Below are positions 29,001-52,712 of a stretch of DNA of 64,000 nucleotides, in pieces. Position numbers and translations under genes: made by a program. The notes beneath the pieces are model-generated. The model was not told where the DNA came from. It did no database searches and saw only the letters and a program-made list of their open reading frames with translations. Each line of letters starts with the position of its first letter. The stretch's first letter is position 1. Source of the DNA: Candidatus Woesearchaeota archaeon (lineage in GTDB: Archaea; Nanobdellota; Nanobdellia; Woesearchaeales; JAHWIC01); assembly GCA_019322485.1 (NCBI GenBank), contig JAHWIK010000015.1, positions 23,216-87,215 of the forward strand, in the 5' to 3' direction.

Positions 29001-32000
29001 GTTTTGTGTGCTGTTGCAGCCAGTTGGTGAGCATGTATAGTTTTCCCGGCCAGGGCAGGCAGAATTGTTATAACAGCTGTAATCATTGCAGTCACCATCT
29101 TGCAGGTAGGTGTTTGCTCCAAAGTGGTATTGATATGATGCATTTGTCCATCCAGGGTTCTGCATCTGGCTGATGTAATAATCCTGGTCATTATCAAAAA
29201 CATCTGTACAGTTTCTTTCAATAATTAATTCACAGTTTTGTCCTGACGGGCCGATAGCTGTATCATTGCAGTCTTGGTCATATCTATAGCTGTCATAAGC
29301 AATAGCATACGGCCAGAATTGGTTTGGAGTGAGACCATATGCATAATAGATGCAGTCTATTCCGCCTGATAGGTTTTCCACTCTGTTTGAATCTAATAAA
29401 TAATCAGTTATGTTGTAGACATACCTGTCTAGGTCATTGTCAACTCCATCAGTGCACAATGATGCTGTTTCTGTTGTAGGGCATGCAGAGTCATTTGCAC
29501 AGTCATAATCATCACAATCATAGCCGCCAGAGGCGCTTGTCCTATTCCCGCCAGGATTGTATGCATTATCTAAGTCATTGTCATAACCATCTGTACAGTT
29601 TATCTCGTGGCCTAGCTCACATTTTCCAGGACCCATATCAACACCATCACAGTCTGCATCAGGGTAGTGGTTTCCATCATAGTTATATCTGCAGTCCATT
29701 CCACCGCCATACTGGTTGTTTGTTGCACTATATTGTGTTCCTGTCCAGCCGGTTATTGTATAATAATCAAGGTCATTATCCTTGTTGTCAGAACAGTTTG
29801 CTCCATCATTTTCCCAATAGTTTGTTACATTGCATGTTGATTGGCAGTCATACTCTCCATGTGCAATGTTGCTTCCACCTGCACCATATTGATAATTTGG
29901 GTTTGTTGTTGAGGCTCCTGTTGAGGTCGTATTGCAGTCAAGTTCCCCATCCTGGTCATTATCAAATCCATCTGAGCAGCTTGTTTCAAAGATTAATTGG
30001 CATGTTCCTGCTGGCAATACAGAACTATTGCAGTCTATATCATACTCTACCATCCTGCAGTCAGCTCCTGCTCCTGGCAAGCCCGAGTAAAAGTCTAGGT
30101 CATTGTCCTTTCCGTCAATGCATGTTATTCCTGACTCATTTATGGGACAGTTTGAATCATTGAAACAATCATATTCTCCATGAGGATAAGTTCCTCCACC
30201 AGAATAGGTTGACCTGGGGTTAGTTGGATTGCTTAAGTACTGGATTACCCCGCCTGTAAAGAATGCTGTTGTGTTGCAGTCAAATGCTCTGTCACGGTCA
30301 TTATCAAACAAGTCATTACATATTGTTTCTACCCCTAATTCGCATGTGCCATTGATTCCTCCAACATTATAGCTGAGCCAGCTTGAGTTTAGGATGTATG
30401 TGTTGTTGCAGTCAGTGTCCCATGTACCTGCATTATAATGGCAGTCTGTATCACCATCATCGTCATTGTCAAAGCCGTCTGTGCAGGAGTTATTTGTTGC
30501 AGCATATTTGCTTTCATTCTGGTAAGCGCATAAAGGATAGGTTCCGTCAGGGTTTGCCGATGTTGAACCAATATAAGCGTCGCAATCAATGTCAATACAG
30601 TCTGTTGTATAATCCAAGTCATTGTCATATGAGTCTGCACAAGATATATCATGTTCATCTCTTACGCCGTCATCTGAAATATTTATGTTAAATTTAAAGT
30701 CATATGCTGAACCATTAAATATCCTGTTCAAGACTAAGCCATACATTCCATAGAAGTTGTTTGTTGTATTCATCATTGCTTTTAGGACATTATCTAATGT
30801 GCTTTGGGTGTAAGGTGTTGGGTCAGAAGGAGGATTTGGGCCAGACTGGGCAATTATTGAGTTAGCACTTGTTGTTTTTCCGCTTAGACCGGTTGTTGCG
30901 GAGTAGTTTAATATCCAGAAATCACCAGGGTTTTCCTGCCATAATGATGTATTGAACTGCCACACCTTGAAATAAGCTGTATAGCCTGTTATTTGCGAGG
31001 TTTGATACAGCCTCATACTAAACAATGCTTCTGGCTGTATCTTGTATGTGTAAGTGACTGCTGTGTTCGATGCTGTTCCAGTGCATAAGTTTGGTGCGCA
31101 TGAAGCATCACAGGTTCCACCGTCTATGCATTGAAGTGACCCATCTAAATCACCTGGGTCATATGGCGGGTCATCTCTCCAGCCAGCTGCTGTTTTGTTG
31201 CAAGTCCATGCAGGAGTGCCCTGCTTGTTTGTATTAGAGCCCCCTACAATATAATATTCTCCGTAGACAATTGAAGCGCAGTCTGAATCCTCACAATCTA
31301 TTTTACCATCTCCATCATCATCTGCATTATTAGCACAGTGCGTCTCCACAACGTCAGGGGTATTCTTTTTCTTTATTGAGAAGTCAACGTCTTTTGCACC
31401 ATAATAATATGATGAGTCTGCGGGATTATAGAAAACACTTGAACAGGTGTTGTTTTCAAGGAAGTAGTTTGAGTTATCTACGCCGGCTGCACAGTTTGCT
31501 GCCCTGGTCACATAACCTACATACCATGCATAGTTGAGGGCAGCTTTACCCTCGTAGAAAGCAAGTTGCACTGTTCCGTTTAATCTTCTGCCAGATGTTA
31601 CAGGTATTGTGCATGTCCTGTGGCATTCTTCACCAACAGGGCATGTTGAATCCTCAGAGTTATTGACATTAGTCACTGTATTGCTTTGGCTTATTGTATA
31701 GGATATAGAGTAATTATTTCCTGCTGTGTTGGTAACTGTTTCTGCTCCATCTGCATAGTTCGAGTCCATGCAGGAGAAATTAGCTTTTAGGTTTTCGATT
31801 ATTCCTTCTCCGATTACTGTCAGATTTATTACTGAACCATCTTCGTAGAACACCCTTCTCCTGTAATTATTTGAGGTATCTGCCACTCTCAACAGGAAGA
31901 ATCCTACTGTTCCTGATGAGCTAGCTCCTCCTGTTATTTCTGTAATAGATGATAACTCTTTTCCATCAGGGATTATGAAGAAGTTTAGTGAACTGACAAG

Positions 32001-32063
32001 TAAGAGGATAATACAAAGTACTAATTTAATAATTTCAGATATCTTTTTTGTTTTATCTTTCAT
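26013..32063 (-). CDS. giant (2016 aa) surface protein with about 15 Cys/Asp/Asn calcium-binding-like repeats and C-terminal Ig/FN3-like domains
   Basis: N-terminal TM/signal. Repeated 'C-x-D-x-x-DND-x-D...DC-x-D-x-DC' units, e.g. CSDGFDNDQDGELDC, CTDGVDNDLDRY, CIDGKDNDLDFY. The C-terminal 'RPTFTWYNA...YFWRVRAY' is FN3-like. Confidence 0.8.
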   Translation of the reverse strand: MKDKTKKISEIIKLVLCIILLLVSSLNFFIIPDGKELSSITEITGGASSSGTVGFFLLRVADTSNNYRRRVFYEDGSVINLTVIGEGIIENLKANFSCMDSNYADGAETVTNTAGNNYSISYTISQSNTVTNVNNSEDSTCPVGEECHRTCTIPVTSGRRLNGTVQLAFYEGKAALNYAWYVGYVTRAANCAAGVDNSNYFLENNTCSSVFYNPADSSYYYGAKDVDFSIKKKNTPDVVETHCANNADDDGDGKIDCEDSDCASIVYGEYYIVGGSNTNKQGTPAWTCNKTAAGWRDDPPYDPGDLDGSLQCIDGGTCDASCAPNLCTGTASNTAVTYTYKIQPEALFSMRLYQTSQITGYTAYFKVWQFNTSLWQENPGDFWILNYSATTGLSGKTTSANSIIAQSGPNPPSDPTPYTQSTLDNVLKAMMNTTNNFYGMYGLVLNRIFNGSAYDFKFNINISDDGVRDEHDISCADSYDNDLDYTTDCIDIDCDAYIGSTSANPDGTYPLCAYQNESKYAATNNSCTDGFDNDDDGDTDCHYNAGTWDTDCNNTYILNSSWLSYNVGGINGTCELGVETICNDLFDNDRDRAFDCNTTAFFTGGVIQYLSNPTNPRSTYSGGGTYPHGEYDCFNDSNCPINESGITCIDGKDNDLDFYSGLPGAGADCRMVEYDIDCNSSVLPAGTCQLIFETSCSDGFDNDQDGELDCNTTSTGASTTNPNYQYGAGGSNIAHGEYDCQSTCNVTNYWENDGANCSDNKDNDLDYYTITGWTGTQYSATNNQYGGGMDCRYNYDGNHYPDADCDGVDMGPGKCELGHEINCTDGYDNDLDNAYNPGGNRTSASGGYDCDDYDCANDSACPTTETASLCTDGVDNDLDRYVYNITDYLLDSNRVENLSGGIDCIYYAYGLTPNQFWPYAIAYDSYRYDQDCNDTAIGPSGQNCELIIERNCTDVFDNDQDYYISQMQNPGWTNASYQYHFGANTYLQDGDCNDYSCYNNSACPGRENYTCSPTGCNSTQNWCLDSIDNDLDNYLSDGINLSTAAGAGIDCAWNNYDSDCNNTYINDSGNIGLCTIRWEYNCSDGVDNDQDLGTYYVGESGSAHAGANTGEDCDDYNCYAVQESGLYVCTDDGSGLSIVEQTCNDTLDNDLDAYTWNGTEYETNDASGTDCGDPDCNGLLGPGDILCALFEEMYFDPFDDTLCGDYNSSGTTAYSMDNDGDNLANCYDTGCYHQGLCRVCPPEENVTLDSCMDGLNNEYEYQDEYISKTNYDPNEINASLNDGVYDCRDSDCDGIVGVWSTSQGICNSASAGTGYRTTESACTDSYDNDFDNSVDCEDSDCSSGASCLAPYTNSLAACTLKCSDAAAVSYIGGEPPDYSVNTNWGGGTPDLTYTEYHWRGKNLTFTFTDSATNVNGKTIQIYLGSASATYVPLDYEMNASNSGIYGTDSGNFNVQYSAQSGYHYQAVLIEYSGAYPNQILNLTFWITVPDNDTIVQNSSFSYYVSTSIGGVEQNADVTQYILETEPPQAPVFVKTTPADDDYTTSRLRMIKTDNTVTRLSASDTVYVRVNATDSGTWNSGVELCQFNDGTGWVNETSAYDCRYALTLSDGLNTIYARAVDGVGNIGPNTSLTIDVRTLPKQTTGFFCIDTNCSTSYPTKDYYVPTETLNVAVNFTSTYGFTANASGCVVYAEKNSPGSRISLGSVPLASTGMCNGTVSLSGLSEGYYTVEVELRDDNDTRTVSGELPWSNGNSKENIWVCDYTQTYNGYTCKDACEREEANRPSKVILKSPESGNTTTELRPTFTWYNATYNGSTTAKYEIEIDDSPIFTSLDYSRGNLSEGSNNETSHTLISDLELDKTYFWRVRAYHSIISGEWSDVWNFTLSSYIAINLTRDVVDFGVVIPGFSESTEDDSPLPLLLENVGNLIVNISINATDLFETVPNPNESYQFAIGVNESGSFTSATTTLTPMPSNSTPAIYNLNWEDASDTAEIDLNATVPLLEPSGQKNSTILVRTT

Positions 32064-33996: not shown

Positions 33997-35889
33997 ATGG
34001 TTAAAGAGGAGTTAGATAGAAGTCACTTTCTTGATTTAGTCAGTAGTCCGAAGGATTTGAGGCTGTTGAATAAGCAGCAGTTAGATATGCTTGCTGAGGA
34101 ATTAAGAAGGCTAATAATTGAAACTGTAAGCAAGACAGGCGGCCACTTAGCGTCCAGCCTTGGTGTTATTGAATTAACTATTGCTTTGCATTATGTTTTT
34201 GACTCACCAAATGACAAGATAGTATGGGATGTTGGACATCAGGCTTATGCACATAAGCTGTTAACAGGAAGAAAAAATAAGTTCCATACCTTAAGGCAGC
34301 ACAAGGGCATAGCTGGTTTTCCAAAATCAAAGGAGAGCCCTCACGATGCCTTTGATACTGGACACAGCTCAACAGCAATATCAGCAGCTTTAGGAATAGC
34401 AGCTGCTCGCGATTTAAAGCATGAAAAAAACAAGGTGATAGCTGTTATTGGAGACGGAGCTTTAACTGGCGGAATGTCTTTTGAAGCCTTAAATCATGCT
34501 GGCTCATTAAAGAAAGACCTCATAGTAATCCTTAATGATAATGAGATGTCAATAAGCAAGAATGTAGGTGCTTTATCCTCTTATCTTTCAAAGCTGGTAT
34601 CAAAGCCTGGTTATGTCGACAGAAGAAAGAAAGTAGAAAGGATTTTAAGGGGGATACCTGGCCTGAGAAGGCAGGCTGCTAAGGTTTTTGGAATCGAGGA
34701 TACAATAAGGGCTTTAGCAGCTACAACTCCTGGCCTGATATTCAGGGAGCTTGGTTTTAGGTATTTTGGACCTGTTGATGGCCATAATATCGAGCAGATG
34801 ATAAAAACATTAGAGAACATAGAACAGCTTAAAGGTCCTATATTGCTTCATGTCATAACAAAAAAAGGGAAAGGCTATAGCTATGCAGAAGCTGACAGGA
34901 CAAGGTTTCATGGCATTGCGCCATTCAACATAGAGAATGGTGAAAAGAAGCACAAGAGCAGCGTTACATACACAACAGCATTCTCAAGATGTTTGACAAA
35001 GCTTGCAAAGCAGGACAAAAGGGTAGTTGCAATAACAGCAGCAATGAAGCCTGGAACAGGATTAGACCAGTTTGCAGGAATGTTTCCAGACAGGTTATTT
35101 GACGTCGGCATAGCAGAGCAGCATGCAGTTACATTTGCAGCTGGCTTGGCTAAGAACGGCTATAAGCCGGTATGCGCGATTTATTCTACTTTCCTGCAAA
35201 GGGCTTATGACCAGATTGTGCACGATGTTTGTTTGCAGAACCTGCCTGTTGTCTTTGCAATTGATAGAGCTGGCTTGGTCGGAGAGGACGGACCAACACA
35301 TCATGGAAGTTTTGATTTATCTTATCTGAGGCATATACCAAACATGACTGTAATGGCTCCAAAGGACGAGAATGAACTGGGGCATATGCTAAAAACAGCT
35401 TTAGAGATTGACGGGCCGGTTGCAGTAAGATACCCAAGAGGTACGGGCTTGGGGGTTGCAATACAGAACCCATACCACCCAATAGAATTAGGAAAAGCAG
35501 AAGTAATGCAGAAAGGAAAAGATTTGGCAATATTAGCAGTTGGTTCTTGCGTTGATATGGCGAATAAGGCTGCTGAGAAACTGGGGAAGAATAAAATAAA
35601 TGCAACCGTTGTTAATGTAAGGTTTGTAAAGCCTCTGGACGAGAAACTAATACTGAACCTAGCAAAGAAACACAGGAAACTGATTACTATAGAGGAGAAT
35701 GCATTAGATGGCGGTTTTGGTTCTGGTGTGCTGGAATTGTTGGAGCAGTATAACACCAAGGCAACGGTAAAAAGAATTGGAATACCTGATAAATTTGTAG
35801 AGCACGGTTCAATGTCAATCTTAAGAGAAAAAATTGGATTAACTGAGGATAATATAGTGAAGGAAGCGAAGTCGTTGATGGCAAAATGA
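33997..35889 (+). CDS. dxs: 1-deoxy-D-xylulose-5-phosphate synthase
   Basis: 'GGHLASSLGVIELTIALHYVF', 'DVGHQAYAHKLLTGR', 'GDGALTGGMSFEALNHAG' and 'DGPTHHG'. Confidence 0.95.
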   Translation: MVKEELDRSHFLDLVSSPKDLRLLNKQQLDMLAEELRRLIIETVSKTGGHLASSLGVIELTIALHYVFDSPNDKIVWDVGHQAYAHKLLTGRKNKFHTLRQHKGIAGFPKSKESPHDAFDTGHSSTAISAALGIAAARDLKHEKNKVIAVIGDGALTGGMSFEALNHAGSLKKDLIVILNDNEMSISKNVGALSSYLSKLVSKPGYVDRRKKVERILRGIPGLRRQAAKVFGIEDTIRALAATTPGLIFRELGFRYFGPVDGHNIEQMIKTLENIEQLKGPILLHVITKKGKGYSYAEADRTRFHGIAPFNIENGEKKHKSSVTYTTAFSRCLTKLAKQDKRVVAITAAMKPGTGLDQFAGMFPDRLFDVGIAEQHAVTFAAGLAKNGYKPVCAIYSTFLQRAYDQIVHDVCLQNLPVVFAIDRAGLVGEDGPTHHGSFDLSYLRHIPNMTVMAPKDENELGHMLKTALEIDGPVAVRYPRGTGLGVAIQNPYHPIELGKAEVMQKGKDLAILAVGSCVDMANKAAEKLGKNKINATVVNVRFVKPLDEKLILNLAKKHRKLITIEENALDGGFGSGVLELLEQYNTKATVKRIGIPDKFVEHGSMSILREKIGLTEDNIVKEAKSLMAK

Positions 35890-36923
35890 GAAGCAAAACA
35901 AAAGAAATCAGGATTGGAAAACTGAAGATTGGCGGAGATAATCCTATTGCAATACAGTCAATGACTAATACTGATACAAAAGACGAGGAAGCAACAATAA
36001 AACAGATTCATGAGCTAGAGGAGAATGGCTGCGAGATAGTTAGGGTTTCTGTTCCTGACAAGGAATCGTTGCTTTCATTAAGAGCAATAAAAGAAAACAT
36101 AAGCATTCCATTGGTTGCTGATATTCATTTTGACCATAAATTAGCTGTAGAAGCTGCAAGGATTGCAGACAAGATAAGGATTAACCCAGGAAATATTGGG
36201 AAAGAGAACCTGAAAGAGGTTGTTGATGCTGTTATGGATTCAAATATTCCGATGAGGGTGGGGATTAACCTAGGTTCTTTGGAAAAAGACATTGAGAAGA
36301 AGTTTGGCCTTACTGCATTAGGTATGGTTGAGAGCGCAATGAGGTCTGTGAAAGAGATAGAAAGGCTTGGCTTCTACAATATGGTTATTTCATTAAAGGC
36401 TTCTGATGTGTTAAAGACAATAGAAGCTTACAGATTGTTTTCACAGAGGTCACAATACCCTTTACACGTCGGTATAACCGAGTCTGGGAGCAGTTTTACA
36501 GGAACTGTTAATTCATCAGTTGGAATTGGAGCTTTATTATTGCAGGGAATTGGAGATACAATCCGCGTTTCATTATCAGCTGAGCCTGTTGAAGAGGTTA
36601 AAGTTGGCTGGCAGATTCTGAAAGCACTTAGGCTTAGGAAGAGGGGGATTGACATAACAAGCTGCCCAACGTGCGCAAGAAAAGGCATAGATGTTATCAA
36701 TATTGTCAAGGAGCTTGAGCAAAGAACCTCAAAAATGAACAAGCCTTTGCATATTGCAGTTATGGGCTGCGGTGTTAATGGTCCAGGAGAAGCTAAAGAA
36801 GCTGATATTGGTGTTGTCGGCGGAAAAGGAAATGTTTTGCTTTACAAGAATGGAATGATGGTCGGCAATATTGAGGGAGATGTTCTTGAAAGGTTGATGA
36901 AGGAGATAGAGAATTCAAAATGA
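35886..36923 (+). CDS. ispG: 4-hydroxy-3-methylbut-2-en-1-yl diphosphate synthase
   Basis: 'IGGDNPIAIQSMTNT', 'RINPGNIG', 'SCPTCAR' and 'AVMGCGVNGPGEA'. ATGA overlap with dxs. Confidence 0.9.
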   Translation: MRSKTKEIRIGKLKIGGDNPIAIQSMTNTDTKDEEATIKQIHELEENGCEIVRVSVPDKESLLSLRAIKENISIPLVADIHFDHKLAVEAARIADKIRINPGNIGKENLKEVVDAVMDSNIPMRVGINLGSLEKDIEKKFGLTALGMVESAMRSVKEIERLGFYNMVISLKASDVLKTIEAYRLFSQRSQYPLHVGITESGSSFTGTVNSSVGIGALLLQGIGDTIRVSLSAEPVEEVKVGWQILKALRLRKRGIDITSCPTCARKGIDVINIVKELEQRTSKMNKPLHIAVMGCGVNGPGEAKEADIGVVGGKGNVLLYKNGMMVGNIEGDVLERLMKEIENSK

Positions 36924-38305
36924 GCTGGAAATTAATCACATTAAAACAGTATCCGATGTTCTCGAGATGGTGGATACATGAAGCGTTTCTCCACGATATG
37001 AAAGATACTTTAGGTATGAATTTTAAAATGTACAAATCGCTCTATAGCGGGACTTATGCTGATAGTGATGAGGTTGAAAAGTTAAGGTCTATGTTAATAT
37101 CTAAACTTGAAAAAGATATTGATTCAATTAGGAAATTATGTGAGAATTGGAAACATGATTGTGATGAGCTTATTAGATTTACAAAAGAATTAGAAAAATC
37201 GGACTTCTCAAAAAACTCTGATGAGGAATTAGTTAATTTATCAGAGAATTGCATTAAAAAATTAAGAAGAAGCGCTTCATATATTTATCTGTCAGTTGTT
37301 TTGGATGAATATTTTCAGAATTGGCTGAATAAAATACTTGAAGCTAAGGTTCAGGACCAGAATGAGAGGACAAAATACTTCCAAATTCTTACATCTCCAA
37401 CAAAAAATACTAAATTAATTGACGCTAAGAAGGTATTAATTGAGATTTCTAAAGTTGTTAAAGAGAAAGGTCTTGAGGGAGCAGAGGACTTAATCAAAGA
37501 TTATGTATCTAAATTTAAATGGCTTGGATATGATACTGGAATTGGAAGTGATTTAACTATAGAACAAACAAAGGATAAGATTTCTAATATTCTTGAGCAA
37601 AAACAGCACGACTCTGATGTTAAAAATAGGGATGAGGTCTTGTCTGAGTTGGATCTCAATGAAAAAGATAAAGAATTACTTGACTTGATGGACGAACTTA
37701 TTTTCCTAAGGACTTATAGGGCTGAAAGCAATATGGTTGCAGGAGCTGATATAAGGCCTATTCTTGAAGAACTTGCAAAAAGAGCCAATACAAATTATGA
37801 TAATCTAGTTCAATTAACCATTGATGAAATAAAAGACTCAATAAAGTCAAAAAAAGTAGACTTGAAGAAGATTGAGGAGAGAAAGAATAAGTATGGCTTG
37901 TTAATGGTCGATGGAAAGAATACAATCTACAGTGGAGATGAAGTGGATAAAGTAGAGGAAAAGGTTGAAGTTCCTGAAGGATTGACAGAGTTAAAAGGAT
38001 TAGTAGCACACCATGGAAATAAGAGGGGCCATGTTAAGATTGTTTTGAGGCATAAAGACTTTGATAAGATTGAATTTGGAGATATTTTGGTAACAAAGAT
38101 GACTAATCCTGATTTTATAGTTGTTTTAGAACAGTGTTCTGGAATAATTACAGACATTGGAGGGATAACCTCTCATGCAGCGATTGTTGCACGAGAACTA
38201 AACAAGCCATGCATTACAGGAACTCAATATGCTACAAAAGTCTTGAAAGATGGTGACTTAGTTGAGCTTGATACAGATAAAGGCATTGTAAAGATAATAA
38301 AATGA
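36920..38305 (+). CDS. uncharacterised protein with a C-terminal PEP-utilising-enzyme mobile (swivel phospho-His) domain
   Basis: C-terminal 'GIITDIGGITSHAAIVARELNKPCITG'. The N-terminal ~360 aa are helical and K/E-rich, with no ATP-grasp motif I can see. ATGA overlaps on both sides. Confidence 0.7.
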   Translation: MSWKLITLKQYPMFSRWWIHEAFLHDMKDTLGMNFKMYKSLYSGTYADSDEVEKLRSMLISKLEKDIDSIRKLCENWKHDCDELIRFTKELEKSDFSKNSDEELVNLSENCIKKLRRSASYIYLSVVLDEYFQNWLNKILEAKVQDQNERTKYFQILTSPTKNTKLIDAKKVLIEISKVVKEKGLEGAEDLIKDYVSKFKWLGYDTGIGSDLTIEQTKDKISNILEQKQHDSDVKNRDEVLSELDLNEKDKELLDLMDELIFLRTYRAESNMVAGADIRPILEELAKRANTNYDNLVQLTIDEIKDSIKSKKVDLKKIEERKNKYGLLMVDGKNTIYSGDEVDKVEEKVEVPEGLTELKGLVAHHGNKRGHVKIVLRHKDFDKIEFGDILVTKMTNPDFIVVLEQCSGIITDIGGITSHAAIVARELNKPCITGTQYATKVLKDGDLVELDTDKGIVKIIK

Positions 38306-39453
38306 ACATAGCAATCATAACAGCAGCTGGAAAAGGAACAAGGATGAATGAAAAAGTCAATAAAATATTGTTATCTTTAGTCGATAAATCAATAATTGAA
38401 GAAACAATCGAGGTTTTTGAGGCGTGTAAAGATATTGATGAGATAATTATTGTTGGAAACAGCGATGATATTGAATCATTAAACAAAATCAATGAAAAAA
38501 ATAATTATAAAAAAATTAAAAAAATCATTGAAGGCGGAGAACAACGGCAGGATTCAGTGTTTAATGGAATAAAATCCATTGAAAATGCGAGTAATGATGA
38601 TATTTTATTGATTCATAATGGTGCAAACCCCCTTGTAGACGAGAAAACGATTCTTGAATGTATTAAAGAAGCAAAGGAGCATGGGGCAGCTGTTGCTGCA
38701 ATGCCTGCAAAAGATACAATAAAACAGGTTGAGAATGGTTTTGTTGCTAAAACATTGGATAGAAAGCAGCTCTGGCAGATGCAGACACCGCAAACAATCC
38801 AGTTTGGGCTTGCGAAAGAGGCTTTTGAAAAGGCATTTGCTGATAATTTCTATGGAACTGATGATGTTGGGCTTGTAGAAAGGCTTGGAAAAAAGGTTAA
38901 GATTGTTGAGTGCAATACTGAGAACGTAAAAATCACAACAAAGAATGATTTAGAACAAGCAAGACTCTTGCTTAATGCTTCTGTTGTTGGAATCGGACAG
39001 GATTCCCACAAATTTACCGACGAGAAAAAGGATTTAGTTTTGGGTGGTGTAGTAATTCCAAATGAGCAGGGCTTAGAAGCAAACTCTGATGGTGATGTCA
39101 TCCTGCATGCCTTGTTTAATGCTTTAAGCCAGGCAGCTGGAGAAAAATCATTGGGAAATTATGCAGATTCAATGTGTGAGAATGGAATAAAAGACAGCAG
39201 AGAGTATCTAAGAGTGATTTTAGACATAATCAACAAGAAAAATTACAAGATAAATAATGTTGGCTTTATGATAGAAGCAAAAAAGCCAAGGCTAGGGGCT
39301 AATGAAGACAGAATAAAAGAGAATATTGCAAATTTATTGGGAATAACTAAAGATAAAGTTGGAATAACAGCAACCTCAGGAGAGGAATTAACTCCATTTG
39401 GCCAGGGCAAGGCAATACAGGTATTTTCAGTTGCAAGCTTAACAAGAAAATAA
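38302..39453 (+). CDS. ispDF: bifunctional IspD/IspF (MEP cytidylyltransferase / MEcPP synthase)
   Basis: N-terminal 'IITAAGKGTRM' is IspD-like. C-terminal 'GIGQDSHKF...SDGDVILHAL' is IspF-like. Confidence 0.9.
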   Translation: MNIAIITAAGKGTRMNEKVNKILLSLVDKSIIEETIEVFEACKDIDEIIIVGNSDDIESLNKINEKNNYKKIKKIIEGGEQRQDSVFNGIKSIENASNDDILLIHNGANPLVDEKTILECIKEAKEHGAAVAAMPAKDTIKQVENGFVAKTLDRKQLWQMQTPQTIQFGLAKEAFEKAFADNFYGTDDVGLVERLGKKVKIVECNTENVKITTKNDLEQARLLLNASVVGIGQDSHKFTDEKKDLVLGGVVIPNEQGLEANSDGDVILHALFNALSQAAGEKSLGNYADSMCENGIKDSREYLRVILDIINKKNYKINNVGFMIEAKKPRLGANEDRIKENIANLLGITKDKVGITATSGEELTPFGQGKAIQVFSVASLTRK

Positions 39454-39474
39454 TGAAAATCAAAGATTTTCAGT

Positions 39475-40344
39475 ATGTCAAAAACCAAGGTTTTTAACAT
39501 GATCCAGCTAAAAGCACACGCAAAGATAAACCTGACCTTAGATGTACTTGCAAGGCTGGATGACGGCTATCATCGGATAGAATCTATAAAACAGCAGGTT
39601 GGTTTGCACGATAAAATCTCATTAGGGCCATTGGATGATATAAAGGTAATCTGCAGCCATCCTAACATAACCACAAAAGAAAATCTTGTCTTTAAAACAG
39701 CATTGTTGCTAAAAAATGAATTTAATGTAGCAGAGGGAGCGAAGATAACAATAGAAAAAAATATTCCATTAGCTGCTGGCTTGGCTGGAGGCTCATCAGA
39801 CGCAGCAGCAACCCTGGTAGGATTAAACAAGCTTTGGAAACTTGAGCTTGATGAGCAGGAACTGACAAAATTAGCTGCAGAGATTGGAATGGATGTTCCT
39901 TTTTCTGTTGTTGGCGGTTCTTGTTTTGCAGAGGGCAAAGGCACTAAACTAAGCAGGATAGAGCTGCCTGAGATGCATGTGCTGTTAATCAACCCTGGTT
40001 TTGAAGTCTCTACAAGAACAGCTTACCAAAGCCTTGACTTGTCAAGAACAGGAAAGGCAATGGCAACAAAGAAACTATTGGAAGTAAGGAACATGGGTGT
40101 GAGAGAAATATCAAAGGTCATGCATAATGACTTTGAAGCTGTGGTGCTGGGGAAGCATTCTATTCTGAAAGAGATAAAGGGCAAATTAATGGAGAATAAT
40201 GCCTTGAATGCAATAGTATCTGGCTCAGGGCCAACTGTTTTTGGCTTGTTTGAGGATGAATCAACTATAAGCAAGGCTTACGAATCTCTTAAAGAAACTT
40301 ATCCATTTGTATTCATGACAAAAACAGTAGCGAGGAAAGAATGA
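39475..40344 (+). CDS. ispE: 4-diphosphocytidyl-2-C-methyl-D-erythritol kinase
   Basis: 'KAHAKINLTLDV', 'PLAAGLAGGSSDAAATL' and 'SGSGPTVFG' (GHMP kinase motifs). Confidence 0.9.
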   Translation: MSKTKVFNMIQLKAHAKINLTLDVLARLDDGYHRIESIKQQVGLHDKISLGPLDDIKVICSHPNITTKENLVFKTALLLKNEFNVAEGAKITIEKNIPLAAGLAGGSSDAAATLVGLNKLWKLELDEQELTKLAAEIGMDVPFSVVGGSCFAEGKGTKLSRIELPEMHVLLINPGFEVSTRTAYQSLDLSRTGKAMATKKLLEVRNMGVREISKVMHNDFEAVVLGKHSILKEIKGKLMENNALNAIVSGSGPTVFGLFEDESTISKAYESLKETYPFVFMTKTVARKE

Positions 40345-41153
40345 GAATTAAAAAAGCAAAGCACTCTGGATTTTGTTTTGGTGTTAAGAGGGCAGTAGAG
40401 TCAGCGCTGGGCACAGAGGGGGAAGTAAAGACATTAGGCCCATTAATACATAATCCTCAGTTTATAGCAGAGCTTGAGAAAAAGGGAATAAAATCTGTTG
40501 ATTCTGTCGATGAGGTTGAAAAAGGCTCTTTGATAATAAGGGCGCATGGTGTCCCGGATTCTGTTATAGAAAAGGCCAGGGGAAAAGGGCTTAATGTAAC
40601 TGATTTAACATGTCCTTTTGTCAGGAAGGTGCATGATTATGCTAAGGAATTCTACAAACAAGGCTATAGTGTGGTTGTGGTTGGAGAGAAAAACCATCCT
40701 GAGGTTGTAGGAATAATTGGCAACATTGATGGTATTGTTGTGGGCAATGCAGATGATGCAAGGAAACTTGGCAGGTTCGAAAAGATTGGAGTGGTTGCAC
40801 AAACAACACAATCACTTGAGAACTTTAACAATGTTGTTGATGAGCTGAAAAAGCATACAGATGAGTTAAAGGTACATAATACCATATGCTCTGAAACAGA
40901 TTCAAGGCAGAAACACGCTATTGAGCTGGCAAAAGAGGTTGACTTGATGATAGTTATTGGGGGGAGAAACTCTGGAAATACCAGAAGGCTTGCCCAGCTT
41001 TGCTCTAAATTAACTGAAACAAAGCATATTGAGTCTGAGGATGAGTTAAAGGAGGGGTGGTTTGCAGGCAAGGGTTGTGTTGGGATAACAGCTGGCGCTT
41101 CAACACCGGACAGCACAATCAAGAAGATTGAGGATAGAATCAGGGAGATATGA
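40341..41153 (+). CDS. ispH: 4-hydroxy-3-methylbut-2-enyl diphosphate reductase
   Basis: 'GFCFGVKRAV', 'GPLIHNPQ', 'LTCPFVRKVH', 'NTICSET' and 'GASTP'. Confidence 0.9.
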   Translation: MRIKKAKHSGFCFGVKRAVESALGTEGEVKTLGPLIHNPQFIAELEKKGIKSVDSVDEVEKGSLIIRAHGVPDSVIEKARGKGLNVTDLTCPFVRKVHDYAKEFYKQGYSVVVVGEKNHPEVVGIIGNIDGIVVGNADDARKLGRFEKIGVVAQTTQSLENFNNVVDELKKHTDELKVHNTICSETDSRQKHAIELAKEVDLMIVIGGRNSGNTRRLAQLCSKLTETKHIESEDELKEGWFAGKGCVGITAGASTPDSTIKKIEDRIREI

Positions 41154-42246
41154 GATTATGGAATTCATACAAGCAGTAGGGCAATACAAGGGAATAGTCA
41201 ATAAGACTTTAAGCACGTTCTTTGATAATCATATCAATAAAACACAGGATGGCTTTCTAAAATTTAATTATTCTACACTTAGGGATTATGTTTTGCGGGA
41301 CGGCAAGAGATTAAGGCCAATCACACTGATAATGGCTTACAAGTCAATAACTGATAATGATGAGCAGAAGATTTACATGCCTTCTTTGAGTATGGAACTG
41401 TTCCATGCTTCCTCATTAATACATGATGATATAATGGATGAGGATGATTTAAGGAGGGGAAAAGAGAGCATGCATACCCTGTTTAACCAGTGGTTTGTTG
41501 ATAATCACGGCCAGGCAGGCTATAATGGGCCTATATTTAACCAGTTATCTACTAAGTTTGGGGTTTCTATGGCAATACTGCAGGGAAATATACTGATTGC
41601 TTTAGGTGAGTCCTGCTTGTCAGGCTCCTCATTTGCCCCGGAACAGATAAAGGCTGCTTTAATGGTGTGCAATAACACAAACAAGGTAGTTAATGAAGGC
41701 CAGATACAGGACATTGTTCTGGAGACAAAGAGGGAGTTTACTGAAAATGATTATTTGAGTATGATTGCTAAGAAAACAGGCAAATTATTCAGCACATCTC
41801 TTGAGATAGGTGCAGTATTTGCAGGTGCAACAGATTCTCAGAGAAAAGCGCTTGATAATTATGCATTATCTGCAGCAACAACATTCCAGATACAGGACGA
41901 TATAATGGACATAAGCCCTGATATGAAAAAGGGGCATGAGGTTGGCTCTGATATAAAGCAGGGAAAAAGAACCTTGCTTGTTATGAAGGCCCTGGAAAAA
42001 GGGGATGAAGGCCAAAAAAAGGTTTTGTTTGATGCTCTTGGCAATGAGAAAGCAACACCAGAAGAAATAGAGATTGCTATCGATGTTATGCACGCTACAG
42101 GGGCAGTTGATTATGCAAAGAATCTTGCAGCTGATATGATTAAGAAAGGAAAGGATGCGCTTAAGGAAGCAGACCCTGCTTTATCTTCTGATGGATTGAA
42201 GTTCTTTAATGATTTAGCAGATTATATGGTAAATAGAAATGTCTAG
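41128..42246 (+). CDS. trans-polyprenyl (GGPP-type) diphosphate synthase
   Basis: FARM 'LIHDDIMDEDDLRRG' and SARM 'FQIQDDIMD'. The true start may be the ATG at 41159 (MEFIQAV...). Confidence 0.85.
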   Translation: MRIESGRYEIMEFIQAVGQYKGIVNKTLSTFFDNHINKTQDGFLKFNYSTLRDYVLRDGKRLRPITLIMAYKSITDNDEQKIYMPSLSMELFHASSLIHDDIMDEDDLRRGKESMHTLFNQWFVDNHGQAGYNGPIFNQLSTKFGVSMAILQGNILIALGESCLSGSSFAPEQIKAALMVCNNTNKVVNEGQIQDIVLETKREFTENDYLSMIAKKTGKLFSTSLEIGAVFAGATDSQRKALDNYALSAATTFQIQDDIMDISPDMKKGHEVGSDIKQGKRTLLVMKALEKGDEGQKKVLFDALGNEKATPEEIEIAIDVMHATGAVDYAKNLAADMIKKGKDALKEADPALSSDGLKFFNDLADYMVNRNV

Positions 42247-43244: not shown

Positions 43245-43393
43245 AGTATCACCTTTAGTCTATTTTATTTGGAAACAAATGAGAATTCATTTTGTCTCCA
43301 GTATAAGCGAGCCATTATTGACCTGCTTATCTCTCGATATAATATAGGAATGATAATTGGTTTAAAAACCTTACTATATGAAGAAATAATCAA

Positions 43394-43565
43394 TAGCCCC
43401 GGGCAGATTCGAACTGCCGTCCCCGGCTGTTTTCGATGGAAATCGCAAAACTGTTGGAAATCTTTGATTTCCACCACCAAAAGCAGGGATGATTTGTCGG
43501 AAATCGGAGATTTCTGAGCAAATTGAAAATCTCCGATTTTCAATTGACCACTACACTACGGGGCT
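43394..43565 (-). tRNA. tRNA-Gln(UUG) with two introns (51 nt in the D-arm, 48 nt at 37/38)
   Basis: Hand fold gives acceptor AGCCCCG/CGGGGCU (A1-U72) and D arm GUGU-AGUGGUCAA-[intron]-UCAU. The AC stem is CCUGC/GCCGG with a U-C mismatch, and the loop is UUUUGG|A. The T arm is GGCAG-UUCGAAU-CUGCC. The mature length is 73 nt. Intron 2 forms a full hBHBh' motif. Confidence 0.7.
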
Positions 43566-43644
43566 CTAAAGCTAAGAAACTCCTCGCGAATATATAAAAG
43601 TTGTGATAAACTAAATCAAAAATTATTTATACCAGTGTTTTAGA

Positions 43645-50619: not shown

Positions 50620-52584
50620 ATGGTACCAGATAATGGAGAAAAGGATACTGGTAACTCTACAGAAGGACCTCCAGAGGACACCCAAGGAGAACCTACAGAG
50701 AGCCCTACAGAAGCCTCTACAGAAGAACCTGAAGAAGAAAAGCTTCTAGTAATAAGACCTTTTGATGAGGTTAAGGCGGATTTGATAAGGCTATCTGAAT
50801 CAACGGATGATGCTGAGAAGGAAGTGATTCGTGGTAGGTTACATGAGGACTTCGATTCTGTCTATCCTATGTTAAAGGGACTGCCTCGCGGGGAAGATGC
50901 TACACTTCTTTCCTACCCTGGGCAAGAGAATATGGTTTCTGCTGTGGATATGGTTGCTAAAAAACCCAAAAAGAAATATGTAGATATGGCAAGCCAACAA
51001 CTAGGCAGGCTTTATGAATCGTATCAGGCAGAGGTTCTTCAAGCGAAATGGAATACTGAAGCTGAGAAACTGCAGTCAGCAGTAGCAAACCCACAAGAGA
51101 CAATAACCCATCTAAGAACTTCCCTTTCTTCTCATCTGTCAGGGCTTCATAGAGATGTTCGTGCTTGTACCATCGACCTATTAATAAAATATAGGGACTT
51201 TAAAATAGGGGAAGATCCTGCTCGGGATGAGGAGAGGATCACTGATAGTTTGCTTGACCCTGAAGATGGGTATTACATCTTAGGTTATACCATAAGGATT
51301 TTTGAGGATGTAAGCGCTAGATATAATGATGTCCGGCTTAAGCAACTTGCACTGAATCCAAGTATTGCTGATACAGCCCGTACCTTATTGCAGATAGTTA
51401 ATGAGGCTCGAAAGATAACTGGGGAGGCTGGCCTTAGTTTAGAAATCTCGTGCAGGGAAGAACTTGAAGCTATGCTGGAGAAAGGAGAGCCTTCTCCTGC
51501 TGATTCAGAGAGGATACTTGCCACTAATAACGAAATACTAATACAACTTGGTAATTTCTTGCTTGATGCTGTTCAAGGCACAAGTTTAGAAGGTAAGTTG
51601 GATTATAAGAAACAAGACTTGCCTGAGAGAGAGCAGGCAGATAAACCAAAAGCGCCACGCAGGGAATATAAAAGGTCTGCTCCGAGCAGGGTATTTTCAA
51701 ATGAATCTCACTCTGAACTTGCAGGTCTTATTTGCACGCTTTCTGCTTCAGAGAATAACGAGGAGTGGGCAGAGATGAGGGGGTGTATAAAAGGAATGCT
51801 GAGTGAGGCGTATAGAGCAATAGGGATAACAGAGGCACATGTGAACGAAATACGTTTGACCTATCCTAAAGAGGAGGAGTTATGTTCTTTGGCTGATAAA
51901 ATTCCTGAACAAAAGGAGACAACTTATGAATTAACTGCTAAGGTGAGAGCTCTTTATGAAGCTGGCACTGCTTACACTGCCCTGGCTTTTTGGAAGAGAT
52001 GGGTGGCTTCATTAAAGGAAGAGTTGGCAACTGAATCTATGGTATATGATACCTGGAAAGGTGCTTTATCAACTTATATGAAGCATTGCGCACCTGAATC
52101 TAGGGACGAAGTTAATAAACGTTTGATAGCGCGTAGAAGGTCAGTCATGGGAGAAGAAGAAAGCCAGAAGTATAGTGATGAGGAAATACTTTTAGCAGTA
52201 AATTCCGAGCTGGATGACAGAGGTAGGCCTGATTTAATGTTAGATCATTCTGCAATATTTTTTGAGGTTGCTATAGAAGATTACGCTCGTTTAGCAAATG
52301 ATGTATGTAAGAAATGGAGGGGCACAACTGAGTTTATTGGTGCTATGCTTAGGTTTTGTGGCGGTGTTTCTCCTTTGGCAGGCTCGTTAGGTATAACTGC
52401 AGATGATTCAGACAGCACCAAACTTAAGGAGTCGTATGAAAAAGGGCTGGGCTATGTTATGGAAGATGAGCATGACCCAAAAGATGTTGCTAATACTTTA
52501 GGTACTTCAAAGAATGTATTGAAGCAGTACGGGGAAATTTATATTAAAATTCTTGAGAAGGTTGCTGAAGAGAAACAGAAATAA
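50620..52584 (+). CDS. acidic hypothetical protein (654 aa) with a two-fold internal duplication
   Basis: Long ORF with an acidic, low-complexity N-terminus. The two ~300-aa halves are alignable by eye. Its stop codon abuts the 3' end of tRNA-Arg. Confidence 0.6.
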   Translation: MVPDNGEKDTGNSTEGPPEDTQGEPTESPTEASTEEPEEEKLLVIRPFDEVKADLIRLSESTDDAEKEVIRGRLHEDFDSVYPMLKGLPRGEDATLLSYPGQENMVSAVDMVAKKPKKKYVDMASQQLGRLYESYQAEVLQAKWNTEAEKLQSAVANPQETITHLRTSLSSHLSGLHRDVRACTIDLLIKYRDFKIGEDPARDEERITDSLLDPEDGYYILGYTIRIFEDVSARYNDVRLKQLALNPSIADTARTLLQIVNEARKITGEAGLSLEISCREELEAMLEKGEPSPADSERILATNNEILIQLGNFLLDAVQGTSLEGKLDYKKQDLPEREQADKPKAPRREYKRSAPSRVFSNESHSELAGLICTLSASENNEEWAEMRGCIKGMLSEAYRAIGITEAHVNEIRLTYPKEEELCSLADKIPEQKETTYELTAKVRALYEAGTAYTALAFWKRWVASLKEELATESMVYDTWKGALSTYMKHCAPESRDEVNKRLIARRRSVMGEEESQKYSDEEILLAVNSELDDRGRPDLMLDHSAIFFEVAIEDYARLANDVCKKWRGTTEFIGAMLRFCGGVSPLAGSLGITADDSDSTKLKESYEKGLGYVMEDEHDPKDVANTLGTSKNVLKQYGEIYIKILEKVAEEKQK

Positions 52585-52700
52585 TGCCCCTGCCGAGAAT
52601 CGAACTCGGGTCTTCAGGTTTTTGCAAAATTGCCGCAACCTAATATTCTTTTTGGCTATGCCGAACCTTGTTCAGCAAGTATCCACTATACTACAGGGGC
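52585..52700 (-). tRNA. probable tRNA-Arg(GCG) with a 13-nt 37/38 intron and a ~31-nt D-arm insertion
   Basis: Acceptor GCCCCUG/CAGGGGC. T arm CCGAG-UUCGAUU-CUCGG. AC stem UUAGG/CCUGA with loop UUGCGG|A. The mini-intron CAAUUUUGCAAAA gives H = UUGC/GCAA flanked by 3-nt bulges. I could not fix the D-arm boundaries by hand. Confidence 0.6.
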
Positions 52701-52712
52701 AATAATTTGTTT

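What the first reader, a model, noticed from the sequence alone, without database searches (positions are those of the whole stretch)
43394..43565. tRNA-Gln(UUG) split by two long introns, one with a textbook hBHBh' motif
The 172-nt gene reduces to a 73-nt cloverleaf only after two segments are removed. These are 51 nt between D-loop 'AGUGGUCAA' and D-stem 'UCAU' (about 43493-43543) and 48 nt at 37/38 (43429-43476).

I could fold the 37/38 intron completely by hand:
- outer helix: anticodon stem CCUGC/GCCGG
- central helix: UUUU/GAAA
- 3-nt bulges: GG|U and AC|A
- inner helix: 10 bp, GGUGGAAAUC/GAUUUCCAUC

I could not fit the D-arm intron to a strict BHB, although it contains a 13-bp helix (AAAUCGGAGAUUU/AAAUCUCCGAUUU). 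The anticodon stem also carries a U29-C41 mismatch.
Basis: seen in the sequence. Interest (0 to 1): 0.55.

Follow-up and report, generated by a model that had tools for sequence, protein, structure and literature searches.

The report
Archaeal glutamine tRNA gene with two introns
This is a real glutamine tRNA gene of a tiny Woesearchaeota archaeon, interrupted by two short protein-spliced introns; this kind of gene is already well known in archaea, so it is a tidy but ordinary find.

Summary
On the minus strand, 43565->43394, three exons join into a 73-nt tRNA-Gln(UUG).

- ARAGORN recognises the spliced product. It is 71/73 identical to the syntenic orthologue L054.
- The 48-nt intron at 37/38 is a strict hBHBh' motif. 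Its core (UUUU GG|U ... GAAA AC|A) is identical in two close relatives, while the inner helix differs in sequence yet stays paired.
- The 51-nt D-loop intron (21/22) does not fit a strict BHB. It does fit the relaxed HBh' pattern found at the same site in at least eight other archaeal tRNA-Gln genes, with compensatory changes.
- The U29-C41 mismatch is real and specific to this lineage.

The source is a Candidatus Woesearchaeota archaeon. Close relatives carry different intron sets at three positions (21/22, 37/38, 59/60), so intron turnover is fast. Multi-intron tRNAs with relaxed BHB motifs are well documented in Thermoproteales, Methanopyrus and DPANN archaea.

Verdict: a new member of a known kind, of modest interest. 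Splicing itself is inferred, not shown.

The parts
43394..43565 (-). Whole tRNA-Gln(UUG) gene, 172 nt. No CCA is encoded.
   Evidence: It is syntenic with the tRNA-Gln of L054/L121/L125/L126, between a membrane-protein gene and rps15.
43544..43565 (-). Exon 1: acceptor 5' strand AGCCCCG, U8 A9, D-stem 5' strand GUGU, D-loop AGUGGUCAA
   Evidence: Identical to exon 1 of L054 and to many intron-less homologues. Weak hit of model R1.
43493..43543 (-). Intron 1, 51 nt, in the D-loop at 21/22 (three other placements give the same product). Relaxed HBh' motif.
   Evidence: The junction is fixed by the conserved mature sequence GGUCAAUCAU.
43546..43548 (-). Intron-1 central helix, 5' strand (G-U-C of the D-loop). 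It pairs with 43496-43498 (GAC). The fourth position is a G.A mismatch.
   Evidence: The same GGUC/GACA arrangement is found in L054. The pair covaries to GGCC/GGCC in L073 and L026.
43543..43545 (-). Intron-1 5' bulge, AA|U
   Evidence: Homologues have AA|U or AA|A at the same place.
43492..43494 (-). Intron-1 3' bulge, AA|U. It is followed by CAU, the D-stem 3' strand.
43527..43539 (-). Intron-1 long helix, 5' arm AAAUCGGAGAUUU. It pairs with 43501-43513.
   Evidence: the repeat finder I3, 13/13 complementary. MFE fold.
43501..43513 (-). Intron-1 long helix, 3' arm AAAUCUCCGAUUU
43477..43492 (-). Exon 2: D-stem 3' strand UCAU, C26, anticodon-stem 5' strand CCUGC, loop UU-UUG-G
   Evidence: It differs from L054/L125/L126 only at positions 26 and 29.
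43478..43480 (-). Anticodon UUG (positions 34-36)
   Evidence: ARAGORN run on the spliced sequence
43429..43476 (-). Intron 2, 48 nt, at the canonical 37/38 position. Strict hBHBh' motif.
   Evidence: Its last 26 nt are identical to the L125 intron.
43479..43482 (-). Intron-2 central helix, 5' strand UUUU (positions 32-35). It pairs with GAAA at 43431-43434.
   Evidence: Identical in L125 and L126.
43466..43475 (-). Intron-2 inner helix, 5' arm GGUGGAAAUC. It pairs with GAUUUCCAUC at 43435-43444.
   Evidence: L125 has GAUGGA/UCCAUC and L126 has GGCC/GGCC at the same place.
43394..43428 (-). Exon 3: A38, anticodon-stem 3' strand GCCGG, variable loop GGAC, T arm GGCAG-UUCGAAU-CUGCC, acceptor 3' strand CGGGGCU, discriminator A73
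   Evidence: Model R1 hit, E=7e-9. The 25-nt probe matched 120 loci.
43591..43598 (-). TATA-like box TTTATATA, about 26-33 nt upstream of the mature 5' end. Likely archaeal promoter (inferred).
   Evidence: Sequence. The same box and leader (TTTTATATAGTCGCGAGGAGTTTCATAGCCTTAG) are conserved in L126. Other orthologues have TTTAAATA at a similar distance.
43380..43393 (-). T-rich trailer UUGAUUAUUUCUUC after the discriminator. Likely termination tract (inferred).
   Evidence: Sequence

Best explanation
This is the functional tRNA-Gln(UUG) gene of a Candidatus Woesearchaeota (DPANN) archaeon. The proposed pathway is as follows.

1. The gene is transcribed from an upstream TATA box as a pre-tRNA of about 172 nt plus leader and trailer.
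2. The archaeal tRNA splicing endonuclease (EndA) cuts at two 3-nt bulges on either side of a 4-bp helix.
   - At the canonical 37/38 site it cuts a strict hBHBh' motif and removes 48 nt.
   - In the D-loop at 21/22 it cuts a relaxed HBh' motif and removes 51 nt. There the central helix is made from D-loop nucleotides GGUC pairing with the intron's GACA.
3. An RtcB-type ligase joins the three exons into a 73-nt tRNA. The introns are probably released as circles.
4. CCA is added afterwards. An archaeal CCA-adding enzyme is encoded in the same window.

Shown: exon content, motif geometry, conservation and covariation. Inferred: transcription, cleavage, ligation and use in translation.
For: - The spliced product is called tRNA-Gln(ttg) by ARAGORN. 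It is 71/73 identical to its orthologue in L054.
- The gene has A1-U72 and A73, the T-loop UUCGAAU and the D-arm GUGU/UCAU, all shared with the family.
- Synteny dph5-membrane protein-tRNA-rps15-DUF116-GGPS-ispH-ispE-ispDF is shared with L054/L121/L125 and partly with L126.
- Intron 2 has 4/4 central-helix pairs, two 3-nt bulges and a 10-bp inner helix. L125 and L126 have the same core with different but still paired inner helices. Most of the 42 candidate 37/38 rows for homologous genes show the same geometry (26 with 4/4 central-helix pairs).
- Intron 1 shares its site and architecture with eight other genes. On that set, 90% of cells are paired against 69% in shuffles (0/500 reach it) and 35-54% when the partner strand is slid. 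Five of 8 pairs show changes on both sides.
- The source organism is identified by a 100% identical S15 protein named Candidatus Woesearchaeota archaeon.
- A CCA-adding enzyme lies at 6557-7807.
- Literature: DPANN lineages including Woesearchaeota carry alpha4 EndA with an L3 insert and have more disrupted tRNA genes. M. kandleri pre-tRNA-Glu has the same pairing of a canonical intron with a D-loop HBh' intron (PMC5829648).
Against: - There are no RNA data.
- The thermodynamic MFE of the pre-tRNA (-67 kcal/mol) is not the BHB fold. It puts a 3x3 internal loop at the D-arm junction and a 2x2 loop at 37/38. Folds with the splice-site bulges constrained to be unpaired came out 2.5-7 kcal/mol higher, but the forced helices were not enforced in that run.
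- In intron 1 the central helix has only 3 Watson-Crick pairs plus a G.A. The inner helix also starts with a U.C mismatch, so the motif is weaker than in L054.
- The anticodon stem carries a U29.C41 mismatch that L054, L125 and L126 lack.
- No EndA or RtcB gene was found among the 30 of 59 window ORFs scanned.
- Junction choice for the covariation test was partly guided by BHB score, which biases upward.
Confidence: 0.85

Rival explanations
1. A decaying or non-functional tRNA-Gln gene. The D-arm insertion, or both insertions, can no longer be spliced efficiently, and the gene is on its way to becoming a pseudogene.
For: - The U29.C41 mismatch is unique to this lineage.
- The D-loop motif is weaker than in relatives: G.A in the central helix and U.C next to the bulge.
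- The BHB fold is not the MFE. BHB pairs have low ensemble probability, 0.002-0.07.
Against: - All other exon positions are intact, and the PSSM score lies within the family range.
- The promoter box and leader are conserved with L126.
- G.A at the same central-helix position also occurs in L054 and L014.
- BHB motifs are bound and stabilised by protein and are not expected to be the MFE (general knowledge).
- A single mismatch in an anticodon stem is common in functional tRNAs.
Confidence: 0.08
2. The 51-nt D-arm insertion is not one intron. It is either a composite of two nested or adjacent introns, or it is cut at an alternative, stricter-looking BHB around its first hairpin. That alternative cuts after gene positions 20 and 50: helix GUGG/UUGC, bulges UC|A and UC|A, and a 10-bp inner hairpin.
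For: A brute-force BHB scan finds this motif with 4/4 central pairs (1 G-C, 3 G.U) and 10 inner pairs. The intron contains two similar hairpin modules.
Against: - Removing those 30 nt leaves a 21-nt remainder with no usable bulges.
- No second cut then gives the conserved GGUCAAUCAU D-arm (worked through by hand).
- The resulting sequence scores far below the single-intron solution.
Confidence: 0.04
3. The extra length of the introns relative to their orthologues comes from copying or insertion of a short hairpin module (GAAAUC-NNN-GAUUUC). The module occurs three times in the two introns and in some intergenic spacers. On this view the introns are partly built from a dispersed or mobile hairpin element. 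This reading is compatible with the main explanation.
For: - There are three 20-nt direct copies at 70-80% identity across both introns.
- The motif is over-represented in the window, 5 matches against 0.35 expected.
- There is a 15-nt exact match at 13300, next to a second hairpin resembling the intron-1 hairpin.
- L054 and L125 have shorter introns that lack the module.
Against: - Local alignment of intron 1 against intron 2 reaches only p~0.05 against shuffles.
- blastn-short E-values are 0.002-0.6.
- Two of the five motif matches lie inside coding regions.
- The sequences are palindromic and AT-rich, which inflates apparent similarity.
Confidence: 0.15

Closest known systems
Methanopyrus kandleri pre-tRNA-Glu(UUC) (Kaneta et al. 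2018, PMC5829648)
   Same: A single tRNA gene carries a canonical strict-BHB intron at 37/38 plus a non-canonical relaxed HBh' intron in the D-loop. Both are removed by EndA.
   Different: Different isotype and phylum (a euryarchaeon with (alpha-beta)2 EndA lacking the specific loop). Cleavage there was shown experimentally; here nothing has been tested at the RNA level.
Multi-intron tRNA genes of Thermoproteales (Sugahara 2007/2008; Fujishima 2010; reviewed in PMC4033280)
   Same: Up to three BHB-type introns per tRNA at non-canonical positions. Introns are gained rapidly, and similar intron sequences in different places suggest transposition.
   Different: Those are Crenarchaeota with (alpha-beta)2 EndA carrying the CSL loop. 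This gene is from a DPANN Woesearchaeote with an AT-rich genome, and the evidence for intron-to-intron copying is weak (p~0.05).
Disrupted tRNA genes of DPANN archaea (ARMAN-2 epsilon2 EndA, PMC3239211; the DPANN survey in PMC5829648, which includes a Woesearchaeota genome)
   Same: The same superphylum. An increased number of non-canonical and multiple introns was reported, associated with EndA inserts (L2/L3).
   Different: Those papers, as far as I read them, do not describe this tRNA-Gln locus or its intron turnover. The EndA type of this genome is not known from the window.
Orthologous tRNA-Gln genes found here (L054/L121, L125, L126, L073, L088 and others)
   Same: Same exons, same synteny, same D-loop or 37/38 intron sites, and the same BHB cores.
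   Different: - L054 has only a 21-nt D-loop intron.
- L125 and L126 have a 37/38 intron plus a T-loop 59/60 intron and no D-loop intron.
- Only this gene combines long D-loop and 37/38 introns and carries U29.

Membership tests
Archaeal tRNA-Gln(UUG) | After intron removal, a cloverleaf with a 7-bp acceptor stem, a D arm, a 5-bp anticodon stem, a 7-nt loop with U33 and anticodon UUG, and a 5-bp T stem with a UUCGAAU loop | tested here: met
   ARAGORN run on the spliced 73-mer. One U29.C41 mismatch and a U13.U22 apposition; the latter is conserved in the family.
Archaeal tRNA-Gln(UUG) | Sequence membership in the tRNA-Gln family (A1-U72, A73, conserved D and T arms) | tested here: met
   PSSM score of 112 bits, within the family range 97-125. 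71/73 identical to L054. Model R1 hits exon 3 at E=7e-9.
Archaeal tRNA-Gln(UUG) | Expression, aminoacylation (Glu-tRNA-Gln followed by GatDE amidation) and decoding | not testable with these tools
   No RNA or biochemical data are available.
Canonical archaeal BHB (hBHBh') tRNA intron | Located between positions 37 and 38 | tested here: met
   Junction G37|U...C|A38. It is the unique best-scoring placement.
Canonical archaeal BHB (hBHBh') tRNA intron | Two 3-nt bulges on opposite strands, separated by a 4-bp helix and flanked by helices h and h' | tested here: met
   H is UUUU/GAAA with 4/4 pairs. Bulges are GG|U and AC|A. h' has 10 bp. h has 4 of 5 pairs.
Canonical archaeal BHB (hBHBh') tRNA intron | Motif kept in relatives despite sequence change | tested here: met
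   L125 and L126 have an identical core and different paired inner helices.
Canonical archaeal BHB (hBHBh') tRNA intron | Cleavage by EndA and ligation by RtcB | not testable with these tools
   No enzyme gene was found in the 30 ORFs scanned. There are no RNA data.
Non-canonical relaxed BHB (HBh') tRNA intron | Lies outside 37/38, and its removal restores the conserved mature sequence | tested here: met
   D-loop 21/22. It restores GGUCAAUCAU, which is found in many intron-less homologues.
Non-canonical relaxed BHB (HBh') tRNA intron | A 4-bp central helix with at least one proper 3-nt bulge backed by an inner helix | tested here: inconclusive
   H has 3 Watson-Crick pairs plus a G.A. The 5' bulge AA|U is followed by a U.C mismatch and then a paired helix. 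The 3' site faces unpaired D-loop bases. L054 and L014 show the same G.A.
Non-canonical relaxed BHB (HBh') tRNA intron | Same architecture in homologous genes, with covariation | tested here: met
   Nine genes: 90% paired against 69% shuffled (0/500) and 35-54% slid; 5 of 8 pairs have double changes. Caveat: the junction register was chosen partly by BHB score.
Non-canonical relaxed BHB (HBh') tRNA intron | The host encodes an EndA with broad specificity (CSL/ASL/L3-type insert) | not tested
   EndA is not in the scanned part of the window. Only a literature statement for DPANN is available (PMC5829648).
Split or permuted tRNA gene | tRNA halves encoded apart or in permuted order | tested here: not met
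   All three exons are collinear within 172 nt.
Group I intron in tRNA | Self-splicing ribozyme core of at least about 200 nt | tested here: not met
   The introns are 48 and 51 nt, and no Rfam intron family is hit.

The most novel reading that the evidence does not exclude
In this Woesearchaeota clade, BHB introns of a single tRNA gene are gained, lost and remodelled between lineages whose S15 proteins are still 81-83% identical. Four configurations occur over three sites: 21/22, 37/38 and 59/60. The two introns of this gene may have grown by copying a shared hairpin module that also occurs in intergenic spacers. If true, this would be a natural system showing how archaeal tRNA introns expand and move, by template switching or a mobile hairpin element.
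Probability: 0.15. Interest if true: 0.55.

Novelty: new member of a known kind. Interest (0 to 1): 0.27.

Why it matters
- It shows that standard tools miss this gene. ARAGORN and Rfam report no tRNA in the whole 64-kb window, so CAA-decoding capacity would look absent in automatic annotation of such genomes.
- It adds a clear DPANN example of a tRNA with one canonical and one D-loop relaxed-BHB intron.
- Together with its relatives, it offers a compact comparative series for studying intron gain and loss, and the substrate range of DPANN splicing endonucleases.
- It does not change what is known about the mechanism.

Tried and rejected
- **ARAGORN.** In default mode it finds no tRNA in the window. 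With -i it reports tRNA-Lys(ttt) with an 83-nt intron at this locus and tRNA-Pro(agg) at 52584-52701. I rejected both as artefacts of its single-intron model.
- **Rfam.** Both the gathering and the E<=10 searches give no tRNA hit, only chance miRNA-like hairpin matches to the intron helices.
- **Own covariance model (R1).** It cannot bridge the introns and sees only the exons.
- **Thermodynamic folding.** It does not recover the BHB folds, so I did not use it as a criterion.
- **Nested or two-step splicing of intron 1.** I tested this via the strict-looking internal BHB (cuts after gene positions 20 and 50) and rejected it, because no second step gives the conserved D-arm.
- **Metagenome scans.** A scan for genes with both introns found nothing. 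The looser scan found only a second copy of L054.
- **Intron 1 versus intron 2 homology.** Marginal, p~0.05.
- **Similarity of intron hairpins to intergenic hairpins.** Marginal.
- **EndA and RtcB.** Not found among the 30 of 59 window ORFs scanned with Pfam.
- **Second tRNA at 52584-52701.** An attempt to resolve its exon structure by exhaustive ARAGORN testing was uninformative, because ARAGORN accepted too many variants.

Full report
**Observation**

The minus strand from 43565 to 43394 reads AGCCCCGUAGUGUAGUGGUCAA / 51 nt / UCAUCCCUGCUUUUGG / 48 nt / AGCCGGGGACGGCAGUUCGAAUCUGCCCGGGGCUA. Joining the three pieces gives a 73-mer. ARAGORN folds it as tRNA-Gln(ttg) with a 7-bp acceptor stem, a normal T arm and a 7-nt anticodon loop UU-UUG-GA.

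- the 10-bp inner helix of the 37/38 intron, with one G.U;
- the UUUU/GAAA central helix;
- the bulges GG|U and AC|A;
- the 13-bp perfect helix in the D-arm intron (repeat finder I3);
- the U29.C41 mismatch.

ARAGORN in default mode and Rfam at gathering threshold find no tRNA anywhere in the 64-kb window. Automatic annotation would therefore miss this gene.

**Is it more than chance?**

Most hits are archaeal tRNA-Gln genes. They include 44 distinct intron-less 73-mers and about 50 intron-bearing genes.

Many intron-less genes share the exact D arm GUGUAGUGGUCAAUCAU.

I scored every combination of two deletions summing to 99 nt against a PSSM of the 44 intron-less genes. The next distinct product scores 105.8, and real family members range from 97 to 125. 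The 37/38 junction is unique. The D-arm junction has four sequence-equivalent placements.

A covariance model built from 36 intron-less homologues hits exon 3 at E=7e-9 and exon 1 weakly. It proposes no other anticodon.

**Organism and context**

The adjacent S15 protein is 100% identical to a protein named Candidatus Woesearchaeota archaeon, on a 92.6-kb NCBI contig. The gene order dph5 - membrane protein - tRNA-Gln - rps15 - DUF116 - GGPS - ispH - ispE - ispDF is shared with L054 (Woesearchaeota Yap2000.bin4.8) at 42-86% protein identity (77-86% for five of the eight shared genes), and with L121, L125 and L126.

A TATA-like box TTTATATA lies about 30 nt upstream. That box and the leader are conserved in L126. 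The trailer is T-rich, and CCA is not encoded. An archaeal CCA-adding enzyme is encoded at 6557-7807.

**Intron 2 (37/38)**

Intron 2 meets every geometric criterion of the strict hBHBh' motif. Two close relatives carry an intron at the same site with the identical core UUUU GG|U ... GAAA AC|A but different inner helices:
- L125 has GAUGGA/UCCAUC.
- L126 has GGCC/GGCC.
- This gene has GGUGGAAAUC/GAUUUCCAUC.

The last 26 nt of the L125 intron are identical to this one. The scan of homologous tRNA-Gln genes returned 42 candidate 37/38 rows, a few of them alternative or spurious placements. Of these, 26 have 4/4 central pairs and most of the rest 3/4.

**Intron 1 (D-loop)**

No placement gives a strict BHB. 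With cuts AA|U (after A21) and AA|U (before U22):
- The central helix is GGUC/GACA, with three Watson-Crick pairs and one G.A.
- The 5' bulge is followed by a U.C mismatch and then the long helix.
- The 3' bulge is followed by the D-stem strand CAU.

This is the relaxed HBh' class.

The orthologue L054 has a 21-nt intron at exactly this site with the same GGUC/GACA helix and bulges. L014, L026, L030, L032, L073, L112 and L022 have introns in the same register. In some of them the helix covaries to GGCC/GGCC, GGUC/GACC or GGUC/GAUU.

On a junction-anchored alignment of these nine genes:
- 90% of cells pair, against 69% in shuffles (0/500 reach it) and 35-54% when the partner strand is slid.
- Five of eight pairs show changes on both sides.

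The register was chosen partly by BHB score, so this is supportive and not independent proof.

Other genes (L088, L100, L046, L066) have D-loop introns shifted by one or two positions.

**Weak points**

- The MFE fold of the pre-tRNA is not the BHB fold. Folds with the bulges held unpaired were 2.5-7 kcal/mol higher, though the forced helices were not enforced in that run.
- The anticodon stem has U29.C41, whereas L054, L125 and L126 have G29-C41. The change is therefore specific to this lineage.
- No EndA or RtcB gene was found in the 30 ORFs scanned.
- A strict-looking BHB inside intron 1 (cuts after gene positions 20 and 50) exists, but it cannot lead to the conserved product.

**Mechanism**

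By analogy with established archaeal tRNA splicing, EndA cuts both motifs and RtcB ligates the exons.

According to Kaneta et al. 2018 (PMC5829648), relaxed HBh'/hBH motifs need EndA variants with a specificity insert. DPANN lineages carry alpha4 enzymes with an L3 insert and have more disrupted tRNA genes; the tRNA predictions in that paper included one Woesearchaeota genome. In M. kandleri pre-tRNA-Glu, which also has a canonical intron plus a D-loop HBh' intron, the canonical intron is removed first.

Multi-intron tRNAs and intron transposition are well documented in Thermoproteales (PMC4033280).

**Evolution**

Among relatives whose S15 is 81-83% identical, the orthologous gene has four configurations:
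- D-loop (51 nt) plus 37/38 (48 nt) in this gene;
- D-loop only (21 nt) in L054/L121;
- 37/38 plus a T-loop 59/60 intron in L125 (41 + 33 nt);
- 37/38 plus a T-loop 59/60 intron in L126 (20 + 47 nt).

More distant Woesearchaeota have up to three introns, including one near position 9/10 (L112, L050; L022, labelled Aenigmatarchaeota, has the same layout).

The two introns here share a 20-nt hairpin module in three copies at 70-80% identity. The statistical support for common origin is marginal, p~0.05.

**Verdict**

This is a new member of a known kind and is of modest interest.

Noticed in passing
window 52584-52701, minus strand: A second intron-bearing tRNA gene (118 nt) that default ARAGORN and Rfam miss. 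Read by hand, it looks like tRNA-Arg(GCG). It would have a 13-nt mini-intron at 37/38 (helix UUGC/GCAA, bulges GG|C and AA|A) and an unresolved insertion of about 33 nt between the D-loop and the anticodon stem. ARAGORN -i calls it Pro(agg).
   Followed up: partly
window about 43245-43345, minus strand (5' leader of rps15); same region in L054 and L123-L127: A conserved structured leader upstream of the S15 gene. It has a stem with 4-5 compensatory pairs (AU<->GC), followed by an almost invariant hairpin UGGAGAC...GUUUCCA and then the ribosome-binding site (alifold A1). No Rfam family matches it. It could be an S15 autoregulatory leader in Woesearchaeota.
   Followed up: partly
window 13295-13345 (+) and 39453-39473 (+): Short intergenic spacers carry hairpins of the same type as the intron hairpins. 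These are GAAATC-AAA-GATTTC followed by TTGAAATTC-GGT-GAATTTCAA ahead of an Spt4-like ORF, and ATGAAAATC-AAA-GATTTTCAG between ispDF and ispE. The motif is over-represented (5 against 0.35 expected), but the similarity scores are marginal.
   Followed up: partly
L125 1226-1386 and L126 1205-1358 (tRNA-Gln orthologues): Both relatives carry an intron in the T-loop at 59/60 (33 and 47 nt) with a shared core UUCG AA|N ... CGAA AG|U. That is why the 3'-exon probe missed them.
   Followed up: partly
window 35886-42246: A cluster of bacterial-type MEP isoprenoid pathway genes sits in an archaeal genome: GcpE/IspG (Pfam), then IspDF, IspE and IspH (named from my reading of the translations), and a polyprenyl synthase. 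The cluster is syntenic in L054, L088 and L058.
   Followed up: partly
window 43566-43600 and 43245-43393 compared with L126 and L125: Mosaic similarity. The promoter and leader upstream of the tRNA closely match L126. The downstream rps15 leader hairpin and the 3' half of intron 2 are identical to L125. This suggests recombination among related lineages.
   Followed up: no
window 6557-7807, minus strand: An archaeal class I CCA-adding enzyme (tRNA_NucTransf2 and CAA_C domains). This is consistent with tRNA genes that do not encode CCA.
   Followed up: yes
window 26013-32063, minus strand: A very large ORF of 2016 aa. The next ORF downstream on the same strand has a WxL-interacting host-binding domain, and a PKD/Ig-domain protein lies further away at 57157-58272. 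Possibly cell-surface proteins.
   Followed up: no
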